From: Octopus sinensis
Taxonomy: Eukaryota
Length of the DNA stretch: 64,000 nucleotides
Assembly (NCBI RefSeq): GCF_006345805.1
Contig: NW_021832383.1
Coordinates: 125,530-189,529, forward strand
Direction of reading: 5' to 3'
The notes below the pieces were generated by a model that saw nothing but the letters and a program-made list of their open reading frames with translations, was not told where the DNA came from and searched no databases. Of this stretch, positions 11,752 through 62,789 are shown in pieces (position 1 is the stretch's first letter; every line of letters starts with the position of its first letter). The position numbers and the translations under genes are program-made.

Positions 11752-12373
11752 GGAACATATCTACAGCTAGGTACACTAGGCCACATCTCTTGCCTAAAGG
11801 AACATATCTACAGCTAGGTACACTAGGCCACATCTCTTGCCTAAAGGAACATATCTACAGCTAGGTACACTAGGCCACATCTCTTGCCTAAAGGAACATA
11901 TCTACAGCTAGGTACACTAGGCCACATCTCTTGCCTAAAGGAACAATCTACAGCTAGGTACACTAGGCCACATCTCTTGCCTAAAGGAACATATCTACAG
12001 CTAGGTACACTAGGCACATCTCTTGCCTAAAGGAACATATCTACAGCTAGGTACACTAGGCCACATCTCTTGCCTAAAGGAACATATCTACAGCTAGGTA
12101 CACTAGGCCACATCTCTTGCCTAAAGGAACATATCTACAGCTAGGTACACTAGGCCACATCTCTTGCCTAAAGGAACATCTACAGCTAGGTACACTAGGC
12201 CACATCTCTTGCCTAAAGGAACATATCTACAGCTAGGTACACTAGGCCACATCTCTTGCCTAAAGGAACATATCTACAGCTAGGTACACTAGGCCACATC
12301 TCTTGCCTAAAGGAACATATCTACAGCTAGGTACACTAGGCCACATCTCTTGCCTAAAGGAACATATTTACAG
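11752..12373 (+). repeat. 47-bp minisatellite, ~13 near-identical units
   Basis: Unit GGAACATATCTACAGCTAGGTACACTAGGCCACATCTCTTGCCTAAA; only a few 1-2 nt deletions. Confidence 0.95.
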
Positions 12374-17416: not shown

Positions 17417-17872
17417 ACATTATTTACATTTGATGGATATTTGTCCTCATCTTGTTTGTTAACACAATGTTTCGGCTGATATACCCTCCAGCCTTCATCA
17501 GGTGTCTTGAGAAAATTTCAAACCTGGGTTCTCATTCCTAAGGTATTTTTTTATATCATTATTATTCAGGTCACTGTCTGGAATCAAACTCGGAATCTTG
17601 GGGTTAATAGCCTGCGCTCTTAACCACTACACCATATAGTTTGGTTAAGAGTATAGTGGTTAAGAGCGTGGGCTACTAACCCCAAGATTTCGAGTTCGAT
17701 TCCAGGCAGTAACCTGAATAATAATAATAACATCAAAAAATACCTTAGGAATGAGAACCCAGGTTTGAAATTTCCCCAAGACACCTGATGAAGGCTGGAG
17801 GGTATATCAGCTGAAACATTATGTTAACAACAAACAAGATGAGGACAAATATCTGTCAAATGTAAATAATGT
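17417..17872. mobile_element. Head-to-head inverted dimer of a tRNA-headed element with a hammerhead-like tail
   Basis: Arms ~17417-17629 and ~17654-17872 are diverged reverse complements. A/B-box-like TGGTGTAGTGG (left arm) and GAGTTCGATTCC (right arm) lie near the centre, and CTGATGA-A-GGCTG...CAGC(C/T)-GAAAC occurs in each arm. Confidence 0.7.
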
Positions 17873-23650: not shown

Positions 23651-24125
23651 TTAACCCTTTCGTTACCAACCCGGCCAAAACCGGCTCTGGCTCTGTAGTA
23701 TAAATGTCTTGTTTTCATTAGTTTTTCATTAAAATATACCAGCAAACCTTAGTTGCAATTTATGTTCCTAACACTAGCTTAATGATAACTAAGTTATTTT
23801 ACTAAATTCTTTGTTATATTTAAAATAATTGAAAGAAACACAGAGCATCTCAAAATAAATATGGTAACAAAAGGGTTAAAATACATAATAGAGAAACAAT
23901 TCTTAACCCTTTTGATACCAACCTGGCTGAAACCACCTCTGGCTCTGTAGTACAAGTGTCTTGTTTTTATAAGTTTTGAATCTTCCACCAAACCTTAGTC
24001 ACAATTTATGTTCCTAACACTAGCTGAATGATAAGTAAGTTATTTTACTAAATTCATTGTTATATTTAAAATAACTGAAAGAAACACAGAGCATCTCAAA
24101 ATAAATACATTAACAAAAGGGTTAA
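23651..24125. mobile_element. piggyBac-type MITE family A, tandem dimer
   Basis: TTAA|CCCTTTCGTTAC...GTAACAAAAGGG|TTAA units of ~225 bp separated by a ~23-bp spacer. Confidence 0.85.
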
Positions 24126-24161
24126 GAGATGTGAGGAAAAGAAACCCCACCAAATCCTTAC

Positions 24162-24266
24162 CTGTTGGTTCATGAGTGAAAGGTAATATTGAAGTTCGCT
24201 ATGGTTTGTTATCATGATACCTTCTCCTCTTGTGTCATATTGGGGCCGACCTGCTCGACCAAGCAT
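24162..24266 (-). CDS. SNRNP200: SNRNP200 exon 20 ([16 protein letters not shown]...LSLMNQQ), 105 nt
   Basis: atccag / CAG|gtaagg; motif VI. Confidence 0.96.
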
Positions 24267-25713
24267 CTGGATAAAAAAAAGAAAAACATGGGAAGTTAAA
24301 CAAGACAAACAAACAAACTTGAAACTAGAGAGGATTAACCCTTTAGCCGTCACATTATTCAGTCAAAAGTAATATCTATTCACATTGTTTTGAATTAATC
24401 ATGGATTATCTCACAGCTTTGGAGATTTTGATGAGGTAACTTAATCTTTAGAATGATATTGTAGGGTTGGTTGTGAGAAGCCAGATCTGGTTGGTTTCAA
24501 ATGAAATGGATAGAATATTTTGGTTGGTTTAAATGCTAACTAGATCCAGCCAGCTTAAACACACAATAGATAGAATATTTGGGCTGGATAAGGCTGGTTT
24601 AAAAGTTTTATTCTTTATAACAAGCACTTAGGTTCTAACACAGAGGGGACAATACAAGGACAGACACAACACCACAGTGGGGACAAAAACAAAACAGATG
24701 CCATGAAATGTATAAAATTAATGATAATGAAATGGCTGCCTTGAGTCCCACTCTGAAGCAGTTCCATTTTAAATGTCTTTACATACAGTTTTTAATCGTT
24801 TTCTTTTCCCACCTTTTCTTTCTATTAGCATCATATTTATATTCTATTGTTTTAACAATTACTTACTTTTTTTTTTTTGAAGTCATTAAAGGTTTAACTG
24901 TTAAAGAGTTAAGTCATACTTGACTGAACTACTCCAGAAGTCAGATCTTATGTCGTACTGTCAGCATAGAGACGAAGTAAGATTCAGACGTGTGAAGATC
25001 TGATGTGCTGTACTGCAATCTGATGCTAACAGGGAAGAATCTAGGCCAAAACAATTATGTCGCCTTACTGGTACTTATGCCTGTGCTAGTAGGGTGCCAA
25101 GAGCACCATCCGAGCGTGATCGTTGCCAGAGCAGTCAACTGGCTTCCGTACCCGTGGCACGTAAAAGGGCACCATTCGAGCGTGATCGTTACCAACGTCG
25201 CTTCACTGGCACGTGTAAAAAGATTCGAGTGAGGTTGTTGCCAGTACTACCTGACTGGCCCCCGTGCCAGTGGCACGTAAAAAGCACCCACTACACTCTC
25301 GGAGTGGTTGGTGTTAGGAAGGGCATCCAGCTGTAGAAACTCTGCCAGATCAAGATTGGAGCCTGGTGCAGCCATCTGGTTCGCCAGTCCTCAGTCAAAA
25401 TCGTCCAACCCATGCTAGCATGGAAAGCGGACGTTAAACGATGATGATGATGATGATGATGAAATAACTATTTTCAAAACTGTAATATGATACCTAAATT
25501 TTAAGAATTCTTAGCTCTTAAAAACTTCATGATGTTCATCAAATGAAGCAAATCTTTCATCAGACACCATTCCCAAATGATCTGGAACCAACTGCTGACA
25601 GTTGATAACCTATGAACAAGGAATCAAGTAGCATATCCACCAAACCGTTTTAATTCTATTCTCTGCCAAACTGAATAGATGGAAGATTCTAAATATTGGT
25701 CCATGAGACTTAC

Positions 25714-25894
25714 CTGCATAACATCCAAAGCACTCAATTCAACCCATCTTCCTTTTTCCGGGCTGTACACCTGTGTTCCTTTGATGATTACGGTATGTGC
25801 AGGTAAATTAACACCCCAAGCAAGGGTTGAGGTGGACACCAACACCTGGATGTGACGATCTGCAAAGAGATCTTCCACAAGAGCTCGATCTACT
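25714..25894 (-). CDS. SNRNP200: SNRNP200 exon 19 ([34 protein letters not shown]...DVMQ), 181 nt
   Basis: tttcag / CAG|gtaagt; motif V. Confidence 0.96.
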
Positions 25895-26183
25895 CTGAAA
25901 GAGAAAAGAGAATAAACGGGTTTTTAAAGGTAATTATAATAATGAAGTAAGAAACGACACAGAAGCAAATACAGAAACTGAATAGCAGAGGTGTTGGGGT
26001 TACAAAGAGAACAAATTATTTTCTTATCTGTTTCTTACAATACATCTCAACGCTTCTAAAAGCAAACTTTGTATGTTTACAGTTATCGTAATTTGAATTG
26101 ATATATATATATATATATATGTGTATATATATATATATAGATCAATAAATGGTGGGGTTGTGTTGACCGCACGTGGAGAAATG

Positions 26184-26969
26184 ATAAGTAAGGAAAAATT
26201 TTTTTTAAAATGCAGAATGCTCAAATGAAAGAAAATTTTAATAAAATGAGAAAATGATAAAATATATAAATATATATTTATTCAACCGGTTTTCGTCATT
26301 GTATGACTTGTCAAGAATATTTATGTTTTAAGAAGTTATTTTAAAAATTAGAAAGAGGAAAAAAAGAAAATTGCATTGTTTTTTGTAAAAGAATAATGAT
26401 AAAAATGTACAAAAATTAAAAAATAAGTTCTCCGATACATTGTGAGTTCGTTGTGTATCTTGAGTTTTATGGTTGTTTACCAAAAAATTACCTTGAGGTG
26501 TTAAGATCCAAAGGGATTAAGAGCATGTGATGTGTTGTGTTGTTAAATTCAGCATGTTGTTAAATTCAGCATGTTAAATTCAGCATGTTAAATTCAGAAC
26601 ATGCTGAATTTAACAACACAACACATCACATGCTCTTAATCCCTTTGGATCTTAACACCTCAAGGTAATTTTTTGGTAAACAACCATAAAACTCAAGATA
26701 CACAACGAACTCACAATGTATCGGAGAACTTATTTTTTAATTTTTGTACATTTTTATCATTATTCTTTTACAAAAAACAATGCAATTTTCTTTTTTTCCC
26801 CTTTCTAATTTTTAAAATAACTTCTTAAAACATAAATATTCTTGACAAGTCATACAATGACGAAAACCGGTTGAATAAATATATATTTATATATTTTATC
26901 ATTTTCTCATTTTATTAAAATTTTCTTTCATTTGAGCATTCTGCATTTTTAAAAAAATTTTTCCTTACT

Positions 26970-26972
<3 letters not shown>
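26184..26972. repeat. Long near-perfect inverted repeat (2 x ~375 bp) with a 39-nt loop of 14-bp repeats, between (TA)n tracts; probable Penelope-like element end
   Basis: Arms 26184-26558 and 26598-26972 differ at about 2 positions by eye; each carries a hammerhead-like motif. Confidence 0.9.
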
Positions 26973-27000
<28 letters not shown>

Positions 27001-27274
27001 GGAAGAAAGTGACCAAGAAATAAAACAATTTACCAGGTTGACAGTGAATGTGGAGAAGACGGAGAGAGAAAAATGATGATAAAAGCAGACAAGCATTAGT
27101 AATGTGTGTAAGATGAAAGTGGGAGAGTTGTAGGAAGAGACAAAAACAGTTTGCTGAGTTACAGTTGAAAATAACTGCACATAGATGAAGACAGACACAC
27201 AGACAGAGAGAGACAATGGACAGAAGGACAGGCAGAGAAAGAAAGAGAGAGAGAAGAATAGAAAAAGAATTTAC

Positions 27275-27336
27275 TTAGTCATTCCGGCGTGGTGAATGGC
27301 AAAACCGTATGGAAGCAGATCCCTTAACTCGAGATT
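27275..27336 (-). CDS. SNRNP200: SNRNP200 exon 18 (NLELRDLLPYGFAIHHAGMT), 62 nt
   Basis: tcttag / AA|gtaaat; HHAG motif. Confidence 0.95.
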
Positions 27337-28326
27337 CTAAGAAAACAAAAAAGAAAAGTTTTGAAGTGAAATCACAGGCAACATATAATAAACGTGGAAA
27401 AGAACAAATCTGATCTCAATATATTTGGCAATAATATCGACATCAACAATAATCATCATCATTGCTTTAAACGTCCACTTTTCCATGCTTACAGAGGGTG
27501 GACGGAGTTTATTGAGATGGATTTATTTCTCTATGGCTCGATGCCCTTGGGTTGCCAACCCTCAACTGTTTTCAAGCAAGGTAATATTTCTCTATGGCCA
27601 GACACCTTTTTGCAGAATATTGGAAGTAAATGACACAGCTTGTATGATGGCGACATCTCATTTACAACTATCATGGAAGGCGGACGTTAAACGATGATGA
27701 TGATGCTATGCCAAGACAAGGACAGACAGACAGACACACACACATGATGGGCTTCTTTCAGTCTTTGTCTACCAAATCTTCTCACAAAGCTTTGGTCAGC
27801 CTAGGGTTATAGTAAAAGACACATATACACATATAGCAGGCTTCTACAGTTTCTGTCTACCAAATCAACTTGCAAAGCACAAAAAAAAATTTTTTTAAAT
27901 GGTTGGCTCGGATCTACAGTAGAAGAAACTTGCCCAGGATACTGGTTGTACAGAGGGATTGAACCCATAAGCACATGGTTGCAAAGCAAACTTCTTCACA
28001 ACACAGCCATGCCAGCACCTATATATTATGTATATTATGTAAAGGCGGCGAGCTGGCAGAAACGCTAGCGCGCCAGGCGAAATGCTTAGCGGTATTTCGT
28101 CTGTTGTTACGTTCTGAGTTCAAATTCCGCCGAGGTCGACTTTGCCCTTCATCCTTTCGGGGTCGATAAATAAAGTACCAGTTTTGCACTGGGGTCGATG
28201 TAATCGACTTAATCCATTTGTCCCCTCTATGTTTAGCTTCTTGTGGGCAATAAAGAAATATATATATATTATGTATTTTATCACAACAGGATGTAGTAAA
28301 AAAAAAATTTTTAAAAACTCCTTTCA

Positions 28327-28515
<189 letters not shown>

Positions 28516-29124
28516 TCAGGATTTTACTTAGGAAGGATTTCATACACGAAAATTGAATTGAAGGTTTGTAAATATATCTGAAAATTTGCACAAATGGGAA
28601 TGCCACCGGAAATCAGTTAATAAGCATCAGTGACAGCATCTGGTATACACAACCGAGACAGTATTAGATTAAAATAGCCACCTATGTATCATAATTAATG
28701 TATATACATCATCTGATAGGCCAGTTACTATGGTATTTGTTCTGAGATAACGTCTCTCATGGAGTTGCTATGTTAAAAACGCAATAAATAATATTAGATG
28801 GAAACGAAAATCTGAGCCAACAACATCAGATGTGTACTGGCCTTTCTGAGCTATTTCATTGGTGCGTACTCTCAACCAGGTAAAATGTACCAGGTGTTTT
28901 CACTGGGACAAATTTTCACCTCCCTCCAATATTGTTTTCAACACAGCAAGTCCATAACAGTTGTCATCTCGGGACAAACACTGCAATAACTGGCCTACCG
29001 ACTGTGTACATACATTAAGTACAATACATCATTGTTATTTAGTATCCCTTTTTTTCCCCGCCACTGTTAGCATGGGTTTGACACATAGATGGCTATTAAT
29101 GAAAGAGTTATTACTTGTAGGTAC

Positions 29125-29383
29125 CTGGTTTTTACCGGCATGCTCCATCACTTTTTCGTACACAATTTCATTCATAATTTGAAATCGTTTCACAGCTTTC
29201 TTCTCGGTGATTCCAATAAACTGCTGTTCCAGTGGCACCGGCCGGTAGCTGTTGTCGAAGAAGAAGAGGCCCTGTGAGGCATCAACTCTAAGGAATGTTG
29301 CTATGTCTTCATAATTGGGGAGTGTGGCACTGAGACCCACTAAACGGACTTCCTCCCGAGTTGTTTCTATGTTCCGGATTGTT
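29125..29383 (-). CDS. SNRNP200: SNRNP200 exon 16 ([27 protein letters not shown]...HAGKNQ), 259 nt
   Basis: catag / CAG|gtacct; motif III SAT. Confidence 0.96.
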
Positions 29384-30204
29384 CTATGGTGAAAGAAAGA
29401 AAAAAGAAATAAAATAAAATAAAAAAAGATGAACAATTTCCTCTCTTTTTATCTTTTACTTGTTTCAGTCAGAGTGTGGCCATGCTGGGGCACTACCTTG
29501 AAGAATCTTTAGTTGAAGGAATTGACCCCAGAACTTATTTTTTTTAAAACAAGATACTTATATTATCTATCTCTCGTTTACCAAACTACTGTTATAGGGA
29601 TGTAAACACACCAACACTGGTTGTCAAGCAGTGGTGGGGGGACAGACACAAAGTCACATACACACATGCAATGACAGGCTTCTTTCTGTCTACCAAATCC
29701 ACTCTCAGAGCTTTGGTTAGCCTGGGGTTACAGTGGAAGATACTTTCCAAAGGTGTCACGCAGTGGGATTTGAACCCCAAACCATCTGGTTGGGAAGAAA
29801 AACCTCCTATAAAGTAATCTCATGGCCTAAGTGATCACCAGACTATTTAACCCTTTAGCATTCAGATTACTTTATCAAACGTAAGGCTTTTTTTATTCAC
29901 ATTGCATTGAATTATACATTATCCTGTAGCTTTCAGATTTTGATGACATGATTGTCTATGTTTTAGAATAACATTGTTGGGTAGGTGTGAGAGGCTGGAT
30001 CTGGCCAGTTTGAACCTAAAGCATATAGAATATTTGGGCTGGATATGGCTGGTGTAAGTGCTAAAGGGTTAAGGAGACAAAATCTACCAGAGGAGACATA
30101 AGAAATAACAGTTCAATTTATTGATGGGCAATCACGAGGAAAAGATAACAAGACAAAAAAAAAAAGAAACAGTTGGCATGAAGGTAAGAAAAGGAAACGC
30201 TTAC

Positions 30205-31496: not shown

Positions 31497-32430
31497 TTAA
31501 CCCTTTCATTACTGTATTTTGAGATGCTCTGTGTGTCGTTTAATTACTTTAAAGATAACAAAGAATTTAGTAAAATAACTTAGTTATGATTCAGCTAATG
31601 TTAGGAACATAAATTGTGACTAAGGTTTTTGTGGAAGGTTTTAATTCAAAACTTATAAAAACAAGACATTTGTACTCAGAGCCAGAGGTGGTTTTGGCTG
31701 GGTTGGTATCAAAAGAATTAAGACTTGTTTCTCTATTATATATTTTAACCCTTTTGTTACCATATTGCTGTTGAGATGCTCTGTGTTTCTTTCAATTAAT
31801 TTTAAATATATCAAAGAATTTAGTAAAATAACTTGGTTATCATTAAGCTAGTGTTAGGAACATAAAAATTGTGACTAAGGTTTGGTGGAAGACTTTAATT
31901 CAAAACTTATGTAAACAAGACATTTGTACTCAGAGCCAGAGGTGGTTTTGGCTGGGTTGGTATCAAAAGAATTAAGACTTGTTTCTCTATTATATATTTT
32001 AACCCTTTTGTTACCATATTGCTGTTGAGATGCTCTGTGTTTCTTTCAATTAATTTTAAATATATCAAAGAATTTAGTAAAATAACTTAGTTATCATTAA
32101 GCTAGTGTTAGGAACATAAAAATTGTGACTAAGGTTTGGTGGAAGACTTTAATTCAAAACTTATGTAAACAAGACATTTGTACTACAGATCCAGAACGAA
32201 TTTCAGCCAGGTTGGTATCAAAAGGGTTAAGAATTGTTTCTCTATTAATTATTTTAACCCTTTTGTTACCATATTGCTGTTGAGATGCTCTGTGTTTCTT
32301 TCAATTAATTTTAAATATAACAAAGAATCTAGTAAAATGACTTCGTTATAATTAAGCTAGTGTTGGGAACATAAATTGTGACTAAGATTTGGTGGAATAT
32401 TTTAATTCAAAACTTATGAAAACAAGACTT
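31497..32430. mobile_element. piggyBac-type MITE family A, tandem array of ~3.7 units; a separate monomer follows at 32603-32831
   Basis: Repeated ~250-bp unit (MITE plus spacer gacttgtttctctattatatatt). Confidence 0.85.
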
Positions 32431-36556: not shown

Positions 36557-37316
36557 GACAGGCTTCTTTCAGTTTCCATCTACCAAATCCACTCACAAGG
36601 CATTGGCCGGCCCGGGGCTATAGCAGAAGACACTTGCCCAAGATGCCACGCAGTGGGACTGAACCCGGAACCATGTGGTTGGTAGACAAGCTACTTACCA
36701 CACAGACACTCCTAGCAACTGTTATTTCCTATTTGTTGACCCCCTTTTCCTTCAAATTTGGCTTTTGTTACATTTATTCAAACCCCCAAAAGAACCCCTC
36801 TCAACACATGGCTATGATGCTCCCCTACTACTCCCGTTCATAATCAAAGATGCACATATCATCATCATCATCATCATCGTCGTTTAACGTCCGCTTTCCA
36901 TGCTAGCATGGGTTGGACGGTTCAACTGGGGTCTGGGGAGCCCGAAGGCTGCACCAGGCCAGTCAGATCTGGCAGTGTTTCTACAGCTGGATGCCCTTCC
37001 TAACGCCAACCACTCCGAGAGTGTAGTGGGTGATTTTATGTGCCACCGACACAGGTGCCAGACGAGGCTGGCGAACGGCCACGCTCGGATGGTGTTTTTA
37101 TGTGCCACCGACACATATGGTAATAGATATCAGGAAACTACTTAAGATTACCAATGAGTGCTTTGAGGACTCTCTGTTGCTTGAATGTCTGTATGAGGGT
37201 TCAATTCTGACAGGAGTGCAGAAAAGGAAAGAAAAACAGACAAGGTCACATAAAACTTGTGCATACCATGTGACTGGCAGCTTTTAATCATTTAAACAAA
37301 TGTACAGCATTTGTTC

Positions 37317-38021
37317 AGCCTCGCCTGGCCTCCGTGCCGGTGGCACGTAAAAAGCACCATCCGATCGTGGCCGTTTGCCAGCCTCGTCTGACACCCGTGC
37401 CGGTGGCACGTAAAAAGCACCATCCGATCGTGGCCGTTTGCCAGCCTGGCCTGGCCTCCGTGCCGGTGGCACATAAAAAGCACCATCCGATCGTGGCCGT
37501 TTGCCAGCCTGGCCTGGCCTCCGTGCCGGTGGCACGTAAAAAGCACCATCTGATCGTGGCCATTTGCCAGCCTCGTCTGACACCTGTGCCGGTGGCACGT
37601 AAAAAGCACCATCCGATCGTGGCCGTTTGCCAGCCTCGTATGACACCCGTGCCGGTGGCACGTAATAAGCACCGTCCGATCGTGGCCGTTTGCCAGCCTC
37701 GTCTGACACCCGTGCCAGTGGCACGTAAAAAGCACCATCCGATCGTGGCCGTTTGCCAGCCTCGTCTGACACCCGTGCCGGTGGCACGTAAAAAGCACCG
37801 TCCGATCGTGGCCGTTTGCCAGCCTCGTCTGCGCACCTGTGTCAGTGGCACATAAAAAGCACCCACTACACTCATGGAGTGGTTGGCGTTAGGAAGGGCA
37901 TCCATCTGTAGAAACACTGCCAGATCAGACTGGAGCCTGGTGTAGCCTCGTGGCTTCCCAGACCCCAGTTGCACCGTCCAGCTGATGCCAGCATGGAAAG
38001 CAGACGCTAAACGATGATGAT
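37317..38021 (+). mobile_element. (ATG)n-tailed SINE-like repeat, the most abundant family here (>20 copies); this copy has an expanded 63-bp internal tandem repeat
   Basis: Core GGAGTGGTTGGCGTTAGGAAGGGCATCCAGCTGTAGAAAC...GGACGTTAAACGATGATG. Examples: 6620-6806(-), 7681-8215(-), 11451-11740(-), 13855-14338(+), 16620-16931(+), 21390-21598(+), 25060-25461(+), 30748-31067(+), 33580-33888(+), 38895-39304(+), 45940-46312(+), 53480-53808(+). Confidence 0.85.
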
Positions 38022-61355: not shown

Positions 61356-62789
61356 GTGTGCATATGTTTGTGTGTCTGTGTTTGTCCCCTAGCATTGCTT
61401 GACAACCAATGCTGGTGTGTTTACGTCCCCGTCACTTAGCGGTTCGGCAAAAGGGACCGATAGAATAAGTACTGGGCTTACCAAGAATAAGTCCCGGGGT
61501 CGATTTGTTCGACTAAAGGCGGTGCTCCAGCATGGCCGCAGTCAAATGACTGAAATAAGTAAAAGAGTAAAGAGAGTCGTCCGAAGTGTGAGGCAAACTT
61601 TATCAAGAAATAGAAATAAGCACGGTTAAAATATGAATTATCTCCACTTAGACTTGTTGCTTACAAAAGTTATCTCCCATATCAGACGTTGCTCGATAAA
61701 GTTATGACGTAGAGACGTCTTATCGTTATGACTTTAAAGCAAAGCTAAAAGCTATTTAGGCGAAGATAAAGGAAGATAAAGGAAATTGAAGCGAATAGCT
61801 AAGACTAATTTATATCTGCACATATGGGAGACAACTTCTGTAAATGACTGGAAAGTTGCAAGAGTTTACAGTATGGTTGACATCGTCGGACAGGTAGACA
61901 GAAAGGTATCAGGTTGACTGTGGGGACGGCAGAAGTTGTCTCAAAATGGCTGCGGATCAGGAAGTGTGAGCCACGGAAGGATTAATATTACTGGAGTTAG
62001 TGGTAATTGAAAACAAGCTTCGATTTGATCAAACTTTTCTGGGTCACCAAAGTAAGAGCATCTGAAGTTGAAAAAAATGAATAACCCCAATGACCCCAAG
62101 ACATATCACTGATGATGTGGCCAGATGCAACCCAGGATGATGTACAGAACAAAATCTGTAGAATACAGCTTCCTGCGACGATATTAAGGCGGCGAGCTGG
62201 CAGAAACGTTAGCACGCCGCGCGAAATGCTTAGCGGTATTTCGTCTGTCGTTACGTTCTGAGTTCAAATTCCGCCGAGGTCAACTTTGCCTTTCATCCTT
62301 TCGGGGTCGGTATAATCGACTTAATCCGTTTGTCTGTCCTTGTTTGTCCCCTTTGTGTTCATCCCCTTGTGGGTAGTAAAGAAATAGGTATTTCGTCTGT
62401 CGTTACGTTCAGAGTTCAAATTCTGCCGAGGTCGACTTTGCCTTTCATCCTTTCGGGGTCGATTAAATAAGTACCAGTTACGCACTGGGGTCGATATAAT
62501 CGACTTATTCCATTTGTCTGTCCTTGTTTGTCCCCTTTGTGTTTATCCCCTTGTGGGTAGTAAAGAAATAGGTATTTCGTCTGTCGTTACGTTCAGAGTT
62601 CAAATTCTGCCGAGGTCGACTTTGCCTTTCATCCTTTCGGGGTCGATTAAATAAGTACCAGTTACGCACTGGGGTCGATATAATCGACTTATTCCATTTG
62701 TCTGTCCTTGTTTGTCCCCTTTGTGTTTAGCCCCTTGTGGGTAGTAAAGAAAAAGGTATTTCGTCTGTCGTTACGTTCAGAGTCCAATC

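What the first reader, a model, noticed from the sequence alone, without database searches (positions are those of the whole stretch)
26184..26972. Near-perfect 375-bp foldback filling over half of intron 18, with a U3-A8 covariant hammerhead in each arm
Seen: the arms differ at only ~2 positions, and the 39-nt loop consists of GTTAAATTCAGCAT repeats copied from the arm end, consistent with template switching. The structure sits between (TA)n tracts. At 26837-26877(+) and 26279-26319(-) the motif reads TATTC-TTGACAA-GTCAT-aca-ATGAC-GAAA-ACCGG-TT-GAATA. Stems I and II are perfect 5-bp helices, AACCGGTT is palindromic (dimer-type stem III), and core CTGANGA is replaced by TTGACAA. Established: positions 3 and 8 form a tertiary pair in the hammerhead core, so C3U+G8A is compensatory. 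Inference: a recent PLE-end insertion that forms a long dsRNA in SNRNP200 pre-mRNA about 300 nt from each flanking exon, a likely ADAR substrate if the host is a coleoid.
Basis: partly seen in the sequence, partly recalled or inferred. Interest (0 to 1): 0.72.

Follow-up and report, generated by a model that had tools for sequence, protein, structure and literature searches.

The report
Head-to-head Penelope retroelement ends in intron
This hairpin is an ordinary recent jumping-gene insertion: two cut-short tail ends of a Penelope-type retroelement lie head to head in a TA repeat inside a splicing-factor gene, each carrying a known variant of a predicted self-cutting RNA motif that would be locked up in the hairpin rather than active.

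Summary
The foldback is as described: 375-bp arms, 2 mismatches, a 39-nt spacer of arm-end repeats, in SNRNP200 intron 18. Each arm is the 3' end of a young Penelope-like element (RT plus C-terminal GIY-YIG; about 490 exact motif copies genome-wide). Head-to-head pairs are routine in this family (28 of 29 inverted pairs); all 22 typable pairs join one tailed and one tail-less end, either arm may be longer, and both usually share a haplotype. This fits two cDNAs primed from both target strands (inferred). The hammerhead motif is real: stems I and II covary across diverged subfamilies and the core is kept. Only one motif is sense in the pre-mRNA, and it would be buried in duplex. U3-A8 cores, inverted ends, tails and (TA)n targets are all published, and this scan noted similar foldbacks in other genomes. 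Short-read contigs did not bridge the spacer, so reads do not confirm the locus; editing and cleavage are untested. New member of a known kind.

The parts
26101..26139 (.). Left (TA)n target tract
   Evidence: flank print
26140..26183 (-).
   Evidence: identical to the tail of the parent copy L032 and of other copies
26184..26558 (-). Left arm: 5'-truncated 3' end (pLTR) of the Penelope-like element, sense in the SNRNP200 pre-mRNA
26279..26319 (-). U3-A8 minimal hammerhead motif, the only one sense in the pre-mRNA; predicted cut after 26284; predicted to be buried in duplex
26486..26494 (-). Splice-donor-like AAG|GTAATT of the element's predicted 5' UTR intron, sense in the host pre-mRNA
   Evidence: function inferred
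26559..26597 (.). 39-nt spacer: 2.8 tandem copies of the arm-end 14-mer (templated insertion at the junction)
   Evidence: not bridged by short-read contigs at 90%
26598..26972 (+). Right arm: same 3' end, tail-less (short end), antisense in the pre-mRNA
26837..26877 (+). Mirror copy of the hammerhead motif: stem I 26837-41/26873-77, core 26842-48, stem II 26849-53/26857-61, GAAA 26862-65; antisense in the pre-mRNA
26970..27000 (.). Right (TA)n target tract
25895..27274 (-). Host intron (1380 nt) of SNRNP200/Brr2, between exons 27336-27275 and 25894-25714

Best explanation
The foldback is one recent insertion of a Penelope-like retroelement, made of two 5'-truncated copies of the element's 3' end joined head to head in a (TA)n tract, and it likely arose when the element's enzyme copied its RNA from both nicked target strands at once. 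Shown: each arm is 99-100% identical to the 3' UTR of an element with RT and C-terminal GIY-YIG endonuclease; one arm ends at the long (tailed) end and the other 44 nt earlier; this pairing is the rule in the family. Inferred: GIY-YIG nicks both strands of (TA)n; two RTs start at the two start sites that bound the tail; both run about 375 nt to a preferred stop (likely the RNA's 5' end); repair joins the two cDNA 3' ends, slipping on a short GTT repeat to write the 14-mer copies. The hammerhead is a passenger of the element's pLTR: conserved as a dimer-type minimal hammerhead in older subfamilies, one U short in this one. In the host pre-mRNA the antisense arm is made first, so the single sense motif would be trapped in a 375-bp duplex, which would likely be an ADAR substrate with no selected role.
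For: Parent: L032 partial tandem, 782-aa frame with RVT_1 (E 1e-7, over cut-off) and a weak C-terminal GIY-YIG (E 0.003, under cut-off), Cx4CxxC linker; 1377 relatives at E<=1e-30, many with PF00078+PF01541. Family size: 493 exact core-pattern hits, control 0. The first 100 listed hits form 78 clusters: 18 hold a head-to-head pair, 0 tail-to-tail (p 8e-6). Among loci held: 29 unique inverted pairs, 28 head-to-head; 22 of 29 could be typed at both ends and all 22 are long+short (p<=2e-7); the tail-less arm reaches further 5' in 10, the tailed arm in 8, same point in 4. Arms of 18 pairs differ at 10 of 198 polymorphic-site comparisons against 30% between copies. 5' ends pile up 372-402 nt from the short end: 8 of 19 ends in the range 372-1000 among loci L001-L030. 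Two internal RT start sites bounding the tail, and cleavage and extension of both target strands, are shown in vitro for another PLE (PMC11167929). Hammerhead stems: 30 cells with double change, 0 of 500 shuffles as high, slid controls 26-44% paired against 91%. Intron fold -667 kcal/mol with both motifs inside the duplex.
Against: Twin priming is inferred from genomic patterns; PMC11167929 (parts read) does not propose it, and PMC3846280 favours self-priming on an antisense template. At this locus both arms stop at the same point and the spacer end can be read as a snap-back, so a one-cDNA route is not excluded here. Shared haplotypes could also come from later gene conversion between arms. 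The loci were chosen by similarity to this arm, its protein or its motif, not at random; the 372-402 peak is weak in the pattern-chosen set (2 ends). No short-read contig bridges the spacer at 90% in 4 runs; one contig at depth 15 covers most of it with two small gaps at 85%. The shuffle control ignores relatedness, and the double changes reflect a few events.
Confidence: 0.9

Rival explanations
1. Same element, but made from one cDNA: the first strand ran to the RNA 5' end, slipped, snapped back on itself and was copied into the second arm (self-priming), stopping 44 nt short.
For: Both arms stop at the same point here and in 3 other pairs; the last 11 nt of the spacer can pair with the arm end across a 6-nt loop; palindromic junctions were read as self-priming in PMC3846280; arms share haplotypes.
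Against: In 10 of 22 typed pairs the tail-less arm is the longer one, which copying of a tailed first strand cannot give, and a tail-less first strand cannot give a tail; it needs a separate rule for stopping exactly at the short end.
Confidence: 0.25
2. Assembly artefact: a fold-back (missed-adapter) long read duplicated one arm.
For: The locus sits on a contig numbered among the small ones (C8854) and is single copy in the assembly; short-read contigs do not bridge the spacer.
Against: A read chimera mirrors the flank too and gives symmetric ends; here the outer ends differ by the 44-nt tail exactly as in 21 other pairs, both ends abut their own (TA)n, the flanks are unique and the exons stay colinear; one mismatch (26356) is private to the left arm among copies held. 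The exact spacer letters could still be imperfect.
Confidence: 0.05
3. A MITE or Foldback-type DNA transposon whose arms are terminal inverted repeats.
For: Long near-perfect inverted arms in a TA target.
Against: The arms continue upstream into an RT/GIY-YIG frame; copies are variably 5'-truncated, often single or in direct tandem, and the two outer ends differ.
Confidence: 0.01
4. A host-selected regulatory hairpin or active ribozyme that tunes SNRNP200 splicing or editing.
For: It fills 60% of a short intron of a core spliceosomal helicase gene and brings a sense donor-like site; the genome encodes adenosine-deaminase domains; young repeats are main A-to-I targets in animals (PMC9989829).
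Against: Arms differ by 0.5% (95% range 0.06-1.9%), so it is very young; hundreds of like copies exist; the motif and donor are predicted to be inside the duplex; no sign of conservation was found.
Confidence: 0.04

Closest known systems
C-terminal-endonuclease Penelope-like elements, Neptune/Nematis type (Craig et al. 2021, PMC8557442, passages read; figures not seen)
   Same: RT then CX2-5CxxC linker then GIY-YIG; partial tandems forming pLTRs; an inverted 5'-truncated copy at the 5' end; a 30-40-bp tail at one end only; (TA)n targets; hammerhead in the pLTR.
   Different: Tail is 44 nt; the parent has a 497-aa ORF1 overlapping the RT frame at a -1 slippery heptamer (the paper's Fig. 1 legend allows a frameshifted ORF1 but I could not see for which clade); Neptune versus Nematis not resolved (no tree with named references).
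Minimal hammerheads of metazoan PLEs, including the U3-A8 variant of Schistosoma Cercyon elements (Cervera and de la Pena 2014, PMC4209133, parts 1-2 of 4 read)
   Same: Type I topology, 5-bp helix I, palindromic 15.2-16.2 region for dimer pairing, U3-A8 core, and 'dual min-HHRs 100-700 bp apart on opposite strands'.
   Different: No unpaired base between A9 and G10.1; helix II 5 bp; the young subfamily is one U short between the palindrome and helix I, so it needs an extra A in the GAAA strand or a mismatched helix III.
Poseidon PAc of Anolis (Frangieh et al. 2024, PMC11167929, parts 1-2 of 4 read)
   Same: Two RT start sites bounding the tail, AT-rich target, both strands cut and extended, hammerhead dispensable for insertion in vitro and no RNA ends at its cut site.
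   Different: Different clade by linker; its hammerhead overlaps the ORF start, here it lies about 200 nt upstream of the ORF1 start inside a predicted intron.
Penelope elements of Adineta vaga (PMC3846280, passages read)
   Same: Head-to-head inverted pLTRs, optional 31-bp tail on one, palindromic junctions.
   Different: Target-site duplications were visible there; here (TA)n hides any. Authors favoured self-priming.

Membership tests
EN+ Penelope-like element (parent) | Reverse transcriptase domain | tested here: met
   RVT_1 32.2 bits over cut-off 29.6
EN+ Penelope-like element (parent) | C-terminal GIY-YIG endonuclease | tested here: met
   PF01541 at residues 687-774, E 0.003, under cut-off; many close relatives carry PF01541
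EN+ Penelope-like element (parent) | pLTRs from partial tandems; direct and inverted arrangements; 5' truncation | tested here: met
   L032, L147, L151, L152, L153
EN+ Penelope-like element (parent) | Optional tail at one end | tested here: met
   44-nt tail; 42 long and 27 short ends among 69 copies
Neptune/Nematis clades | CX2-5CxxC linker between RT and EN | tested here: met
   Cx4CxxC in the L032 translation; definition from PMC8557442
Neptune/Nematis clades | Placement in an RT tree with named references | not tested
   no named reference sequences were on hand
Naiad/Chlamys | N-terminal GIY-YIG | tested here: not met
   endonuclease is C-terminal
Minimal type I hammerhead | Core (C/U)3 U4 G5 A6 N7 (G/A)8 A9 and G12 A13 A14 A15.1 conserved | tested here: met
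   U4, A6, A8, A9, A14 invariant and U3, G5, G12, A13, A15.1 in at least 90% of 21 rows; N7 varies
Minimal type I hammerhead | Helices I and II paired with covariation | tested here: met
   95% and 84% cells paired; 2 and 3 pairs with double changes; one older subfamily has U10.1-U11.1, a known natural variant (PMC3088659 section 8)
Minimal type I hammerhead | A15.1-U16.1 pair, palindromic helix III and H17 in canonical register | tested here: inconclusive
   met in older subfamilies (8-nt palindrome plus U/A17); in the window copy only with an extra A in the GAAA strand; a natural insertion there is tolerated in another hammerhead
Minimal type I hammerhead | Self-cleavage | not testable with these tools
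   indirect only: 1 copy genome-wide begins at the predicted cut site with a non-T junction
Rfam Hammerhead_1 (RF00163) | Covariance-model score over gathering | tested here: not met
   no hammerhead hit in 24000-29500; the 7 genome hits are other, C3-G8 families
MITE/Foldback DNA transposon | Arms are terminal inverted repeats with fixed, symmetric outer ends | tested here: not met
   outer ends differ by 44 nt; arms are a retroelement 3' UTR
microRNA precursor | Rfam gathering score | tested here: not met
   all miRNA hits far below gathering; any long hairpin scores

The most novel reading that the evidence does not exclude
The family is a genomic record that Penelope-type enzymes insert as dimers priming both target strands, with one subunit obliged to start at the tailed site and the other at the tail-less site on RNA from one source; and its latest, largest burst came from a lineage that had lost a base at the hammerhead cleavage junction, a natural test that the ribozyme is dispensable for amplification.
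Probability: 0.4. Interest if true: 0.5.

Novelty: new member of a known kind. Interest (0 to 1): 0.27.

Why it matters
As a locus it matters little: it is one of hundreds of young copies, and every feature is a published PLE trait. It is a clean example of how PLE insertions make perfect long dsRNA in introns in one step, a likely source of editing substrates in animals with active PLEs. The family-level numbers (strict long+short pairing, either arm longer, shared haplotype, loss of one U in the youngest subfamily) bear on two open questions named in the papers read: how PLE inverted structures form and whether their hammerheads are needed. Both are now testable with the published in vitro PLE assay.

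Tried and rejected
Rfam scan of 24000-29500: no hammerhead; miRNA hits below gathering. Monomer folding not better than shuffles. First pattern search used too long a gap and missed the family (1 hit); repeated with the right gap. Contigs of 6 run-layings on the left part and the spacer (X1 and X2 used twice) break inside the repeat and at (TA)n; no bridge of the spacer at 90%, one gapped contig at 85%; a hole proves nothing. No second copy or empty haplotig of the locus in the assembly. The T/A-run difference at 26206/26950 is not tied to long or short ends (Fisher p=1). No pile-up of copies starting at the predicted hammerhead cut: 3 pattern hits, 1 true junction, against 2 hits and 0 junctions at a control site; junctions with T before the cut are invisible to this test. 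RF00163 hits elsewhere have no PLE RT within 1.5 kb. Lunse et al. on dimer-cleaving PLE hammerheads is not held, so I could not check whether the short-junction form was assayed. A search for Penelope with twin priming, inverted and target-primed reverse transcription gave 1 unrelated review; searches for a Neptune ORF1 frameshift gave nothing direct; these cover open-licence papers only. No supplements were read; those of PMC8557442 and PMC4209133 may hold this family or this motif.

Full report
Observation. The arms 26184-26558 and 26598-26972 are 375 bp and differ at two positions. The 39-nt spacer is 14+14+11 nt of the 14-mer found at the inner end of the left arm. (TA)n tracts flank the structure. 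The host gene is SNRNP200 on the minus strand: the exon at 25893-25714 matches human Brr2 792-851, the intron is 1380 nt (27274-25895) and the inverted repeat fills 57% of it. Eighteen coding exons upstream were counted by eye (partly from recalled protein sequence).

What the arms are. A genome search with one arm gave 1057 first-look candidates; the 44 matches reported were 99-100% identical. Larger stretches around paired hits showed the parent: a partial tandem (L032) with an ORF1, a 782-aa RT plus C-terminal GIY-YIG frame and a 777-nt 3' UTR whose last 375 nt are the arm. A Cx4CxxC linker puts it with Neptune/Nematis as defined in PMC8557442 (passages); no tree was built. The core motif pattern has 493 exact hits and 0 for the reversed control.

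The architecture is routine. Of the first 100 listed hits (of 493), forming 78 clusters, 18 hold a head-to-head pair and none a tail-to-tail pair. Among all loci held there were 29 unique adjacent inverted pairs including this one: 28 head-to-head, 1 tail-to-tail (old copy L117). In 22 both outer ends could be typed and all 22 join a tailed and a tail-less end; 7 had one untyped end. The tail-less arm reaches further 5' in 10, the tailed arm in 8, the same point in 4. In 18 pairs compared, arms differ at 47 of 8465 positions (0.56%) against 1.47% between copies, and at 10 of 198 polymorphic-site comparisons against 30%; most of those 10 are at one T/A homopolymer boundary. These loci were chosen by similarity, not at random. 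Inverted 5'-truncated copies, a tail at one end and (TA)n targets are described in PMC8557442 and PMC3846280 (passages).

Mechanism. PMC11167929 (parts 1-2 of 4) shows for an Anolis PLE that both target strands are cut and extended and that RT starts at two internal sites that bound the tail. Taken with the counts above, the simplest account (inferred) is two cDNAs, one from each site and strand, joined at their 3' ends. Here both stop about 375 nt from the short end, inside a zone where 8 of 19 ends in the range 372-1000 fall among loci L001-L030 (p 2e-6 against uniform; weak in the pattern-chosen set). The zone lies 60-90 nt upstream of a predicted splice donor, so it likely marks the RNA start. 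The spacer is what repeated slippage on a short GTT repeat would write during joining (inferred). A single-cDNA snap-back fits this locus but not the 10 pairs whose tail-less arm is longer. I put the identity of the structure at 0.9 and, given that, two-strand priming at about 0.65 against 0.25 for snap-back.

The hammerhead. Twenty-five loci were scanned for the motif; 2 had none, 3 were dropped (one with its 3' side deleted, two further young-type copies) and 20 plus the window were aligned. Across copies that are 67-92% identical to the young 3' UTR, U4, A6, A8, A9 and A14 are invariant, U3, G5, G12, A13 and A15.1 are kept in at least 90%, and only N7 varies freely. Helices I and II show double changes at 2 and 3 pairs (30 cells; 0 of 500 shuffles; slid controls 26-44% paired against 91%; the shuffle ignores relatedness). 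So the motif is a selected minimal hammerhead at family level. U3-A8 is known in nature and active in vitro (PMC3088659 section 8) and known in Schistosoma PLEs, together with pairs on opposite strands 100-700 bp apart (PMC4209133). No C3-G8 row occurs in this family, so it is not covariation seen here. All 19 older rows have three bases (TTT or TTA) before helix I, giving an 8-nt palindrome plus a proper H17; the window copy and its subfamily have two. Exact counts are 489 two-T against 127 three-T copies, and two-T copies are the more alike (median 98.0% against 94.8% and 92.2%), so the loss is derived. The young form can still be drawn with a 6-nt palindrome and an extra A in the GAAA strand, and an insertion in that strand is tolerated in another hammerhead, so activity is open. 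Only 1 copy genome-wide begins at the predicted cut with a non-T junction, in line with the lack of such RNA ends in the Anolis study.

In the host RNA. Transcription meets the right arm first (antisense), then the left. The intron folds at -667 kcal/mol with both motifs inside the duplex, so self-cleavage here is unlikely, and a dimer partner is absent since the two motifs are on opposite strands. The duplex has 284 adenosines, the genome encodes adenosine-deaminase domains (ADAR versus ADAT not separated) and young repeats are the main editing targets in animals (PMC9989829, passages). Editing is therefore likely but untested: the public runs offered were contigs and none was on record as RNA.

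Is it real DNA? Contigs did not settle it: none bridges the spacer at 90%, one contig at depth 15 in run X2 covers most of it with two small gaps at 85%, and runs X1, X3, X5 and X9 show no cover there, which proves nothing. The assembly has no second copy of the locus. The case against a chimera is internal: asymmetric ends identical in kind to 21 other pairs, unique flanks, colinear exons and a private mismatch.

Earlier scan notes (AI notes, unchecked) describe like foldbacks with U3-A8 motifs in three other genomes; none matched by sequence. One reports halves from different parents, which this family mostly does not show; another reports fold-back points at the RNA start and the ribozyme cut, which prompted: I see the first pile-up, not the second.

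Verdict. A real-looking, young, ordinary PLE head-to-head insertion; new member of a known kind; interest 0.27. The family-level pairing rule, the lost U and the frameshifted ORF1 are the only points of further interest.

Noticed in passing
L147:3876-5366(-); L031, L032, L146, L149, L151, L152: The parent has a 497-aa ORF1 (intact in L147, no Pfam match) that overlaps the RT-EN frame in -1 at a T TTT TTA heptamer, kept in 6 of 7 long copies; no strong hairpin follows it. Possible programmed frameshift in an endonuclease-bearing PLE.
   Followed up: partly
L032:8535-8155(-); window 26494-26486(-): A predicted intron in the element's 5' UTR (donor 312 nt from the short end, acceptor right before the ORF1 ATG) would contain the hammerhead; Penelope of Drosophila virilis has a 5' UTR intron per PMC8557442.
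   Followed up: partly
family copies, 372-402 nt from the short end: 5' ends pile up here, several with small palindromes or templated repeats (L004, L019, L023); likely the RNA start or an RT pause.
   Followed up: partly
window about 17452-17501(-): A canonical C3-G8 minimal hammerhead-like motif in another repeat; a near-identical one lies in L032.
   Followed up: no
L119-L125: Seven RF00163 matches elsewhere in the genome, canonical core, at least two in a 431-nt tandem; no PLE RT nearby; may be retrozyme-like.
   Followed up: partly
window 26007-26088: An older high-copy repeat fragment beside the left (TA)n (depth about 36000 against 36-45 in the unique flank).
   Followed up: no
L069/L070, L075, L089: Some copies are split just after the hammerhead, at its AT-rich 3' side, by a second insertion.
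   Followed up: no
L157: One copy joins the end of the RT-EN frame directly to the predicted hammerhead cut site.
   Followed up: partly
L037:1611-2382: An unrelated 772-bp near-perfect palindrome beside one family copy.
   Followed up: no
window 11752-12373, 37316-37863, 31519-32428, 62303-62787: Tandem arrays with periods 47, 63, 254 and 184 nt; the 63-nt and about 250-nt units recur through the window.
   Followed up: no
P0027, P0061, P0067, P0089, P0106: Relatives of the PLE protein are filed under bivalve gill-symbiont bacterial assemblies, likely host contamination.
   Followed up: no
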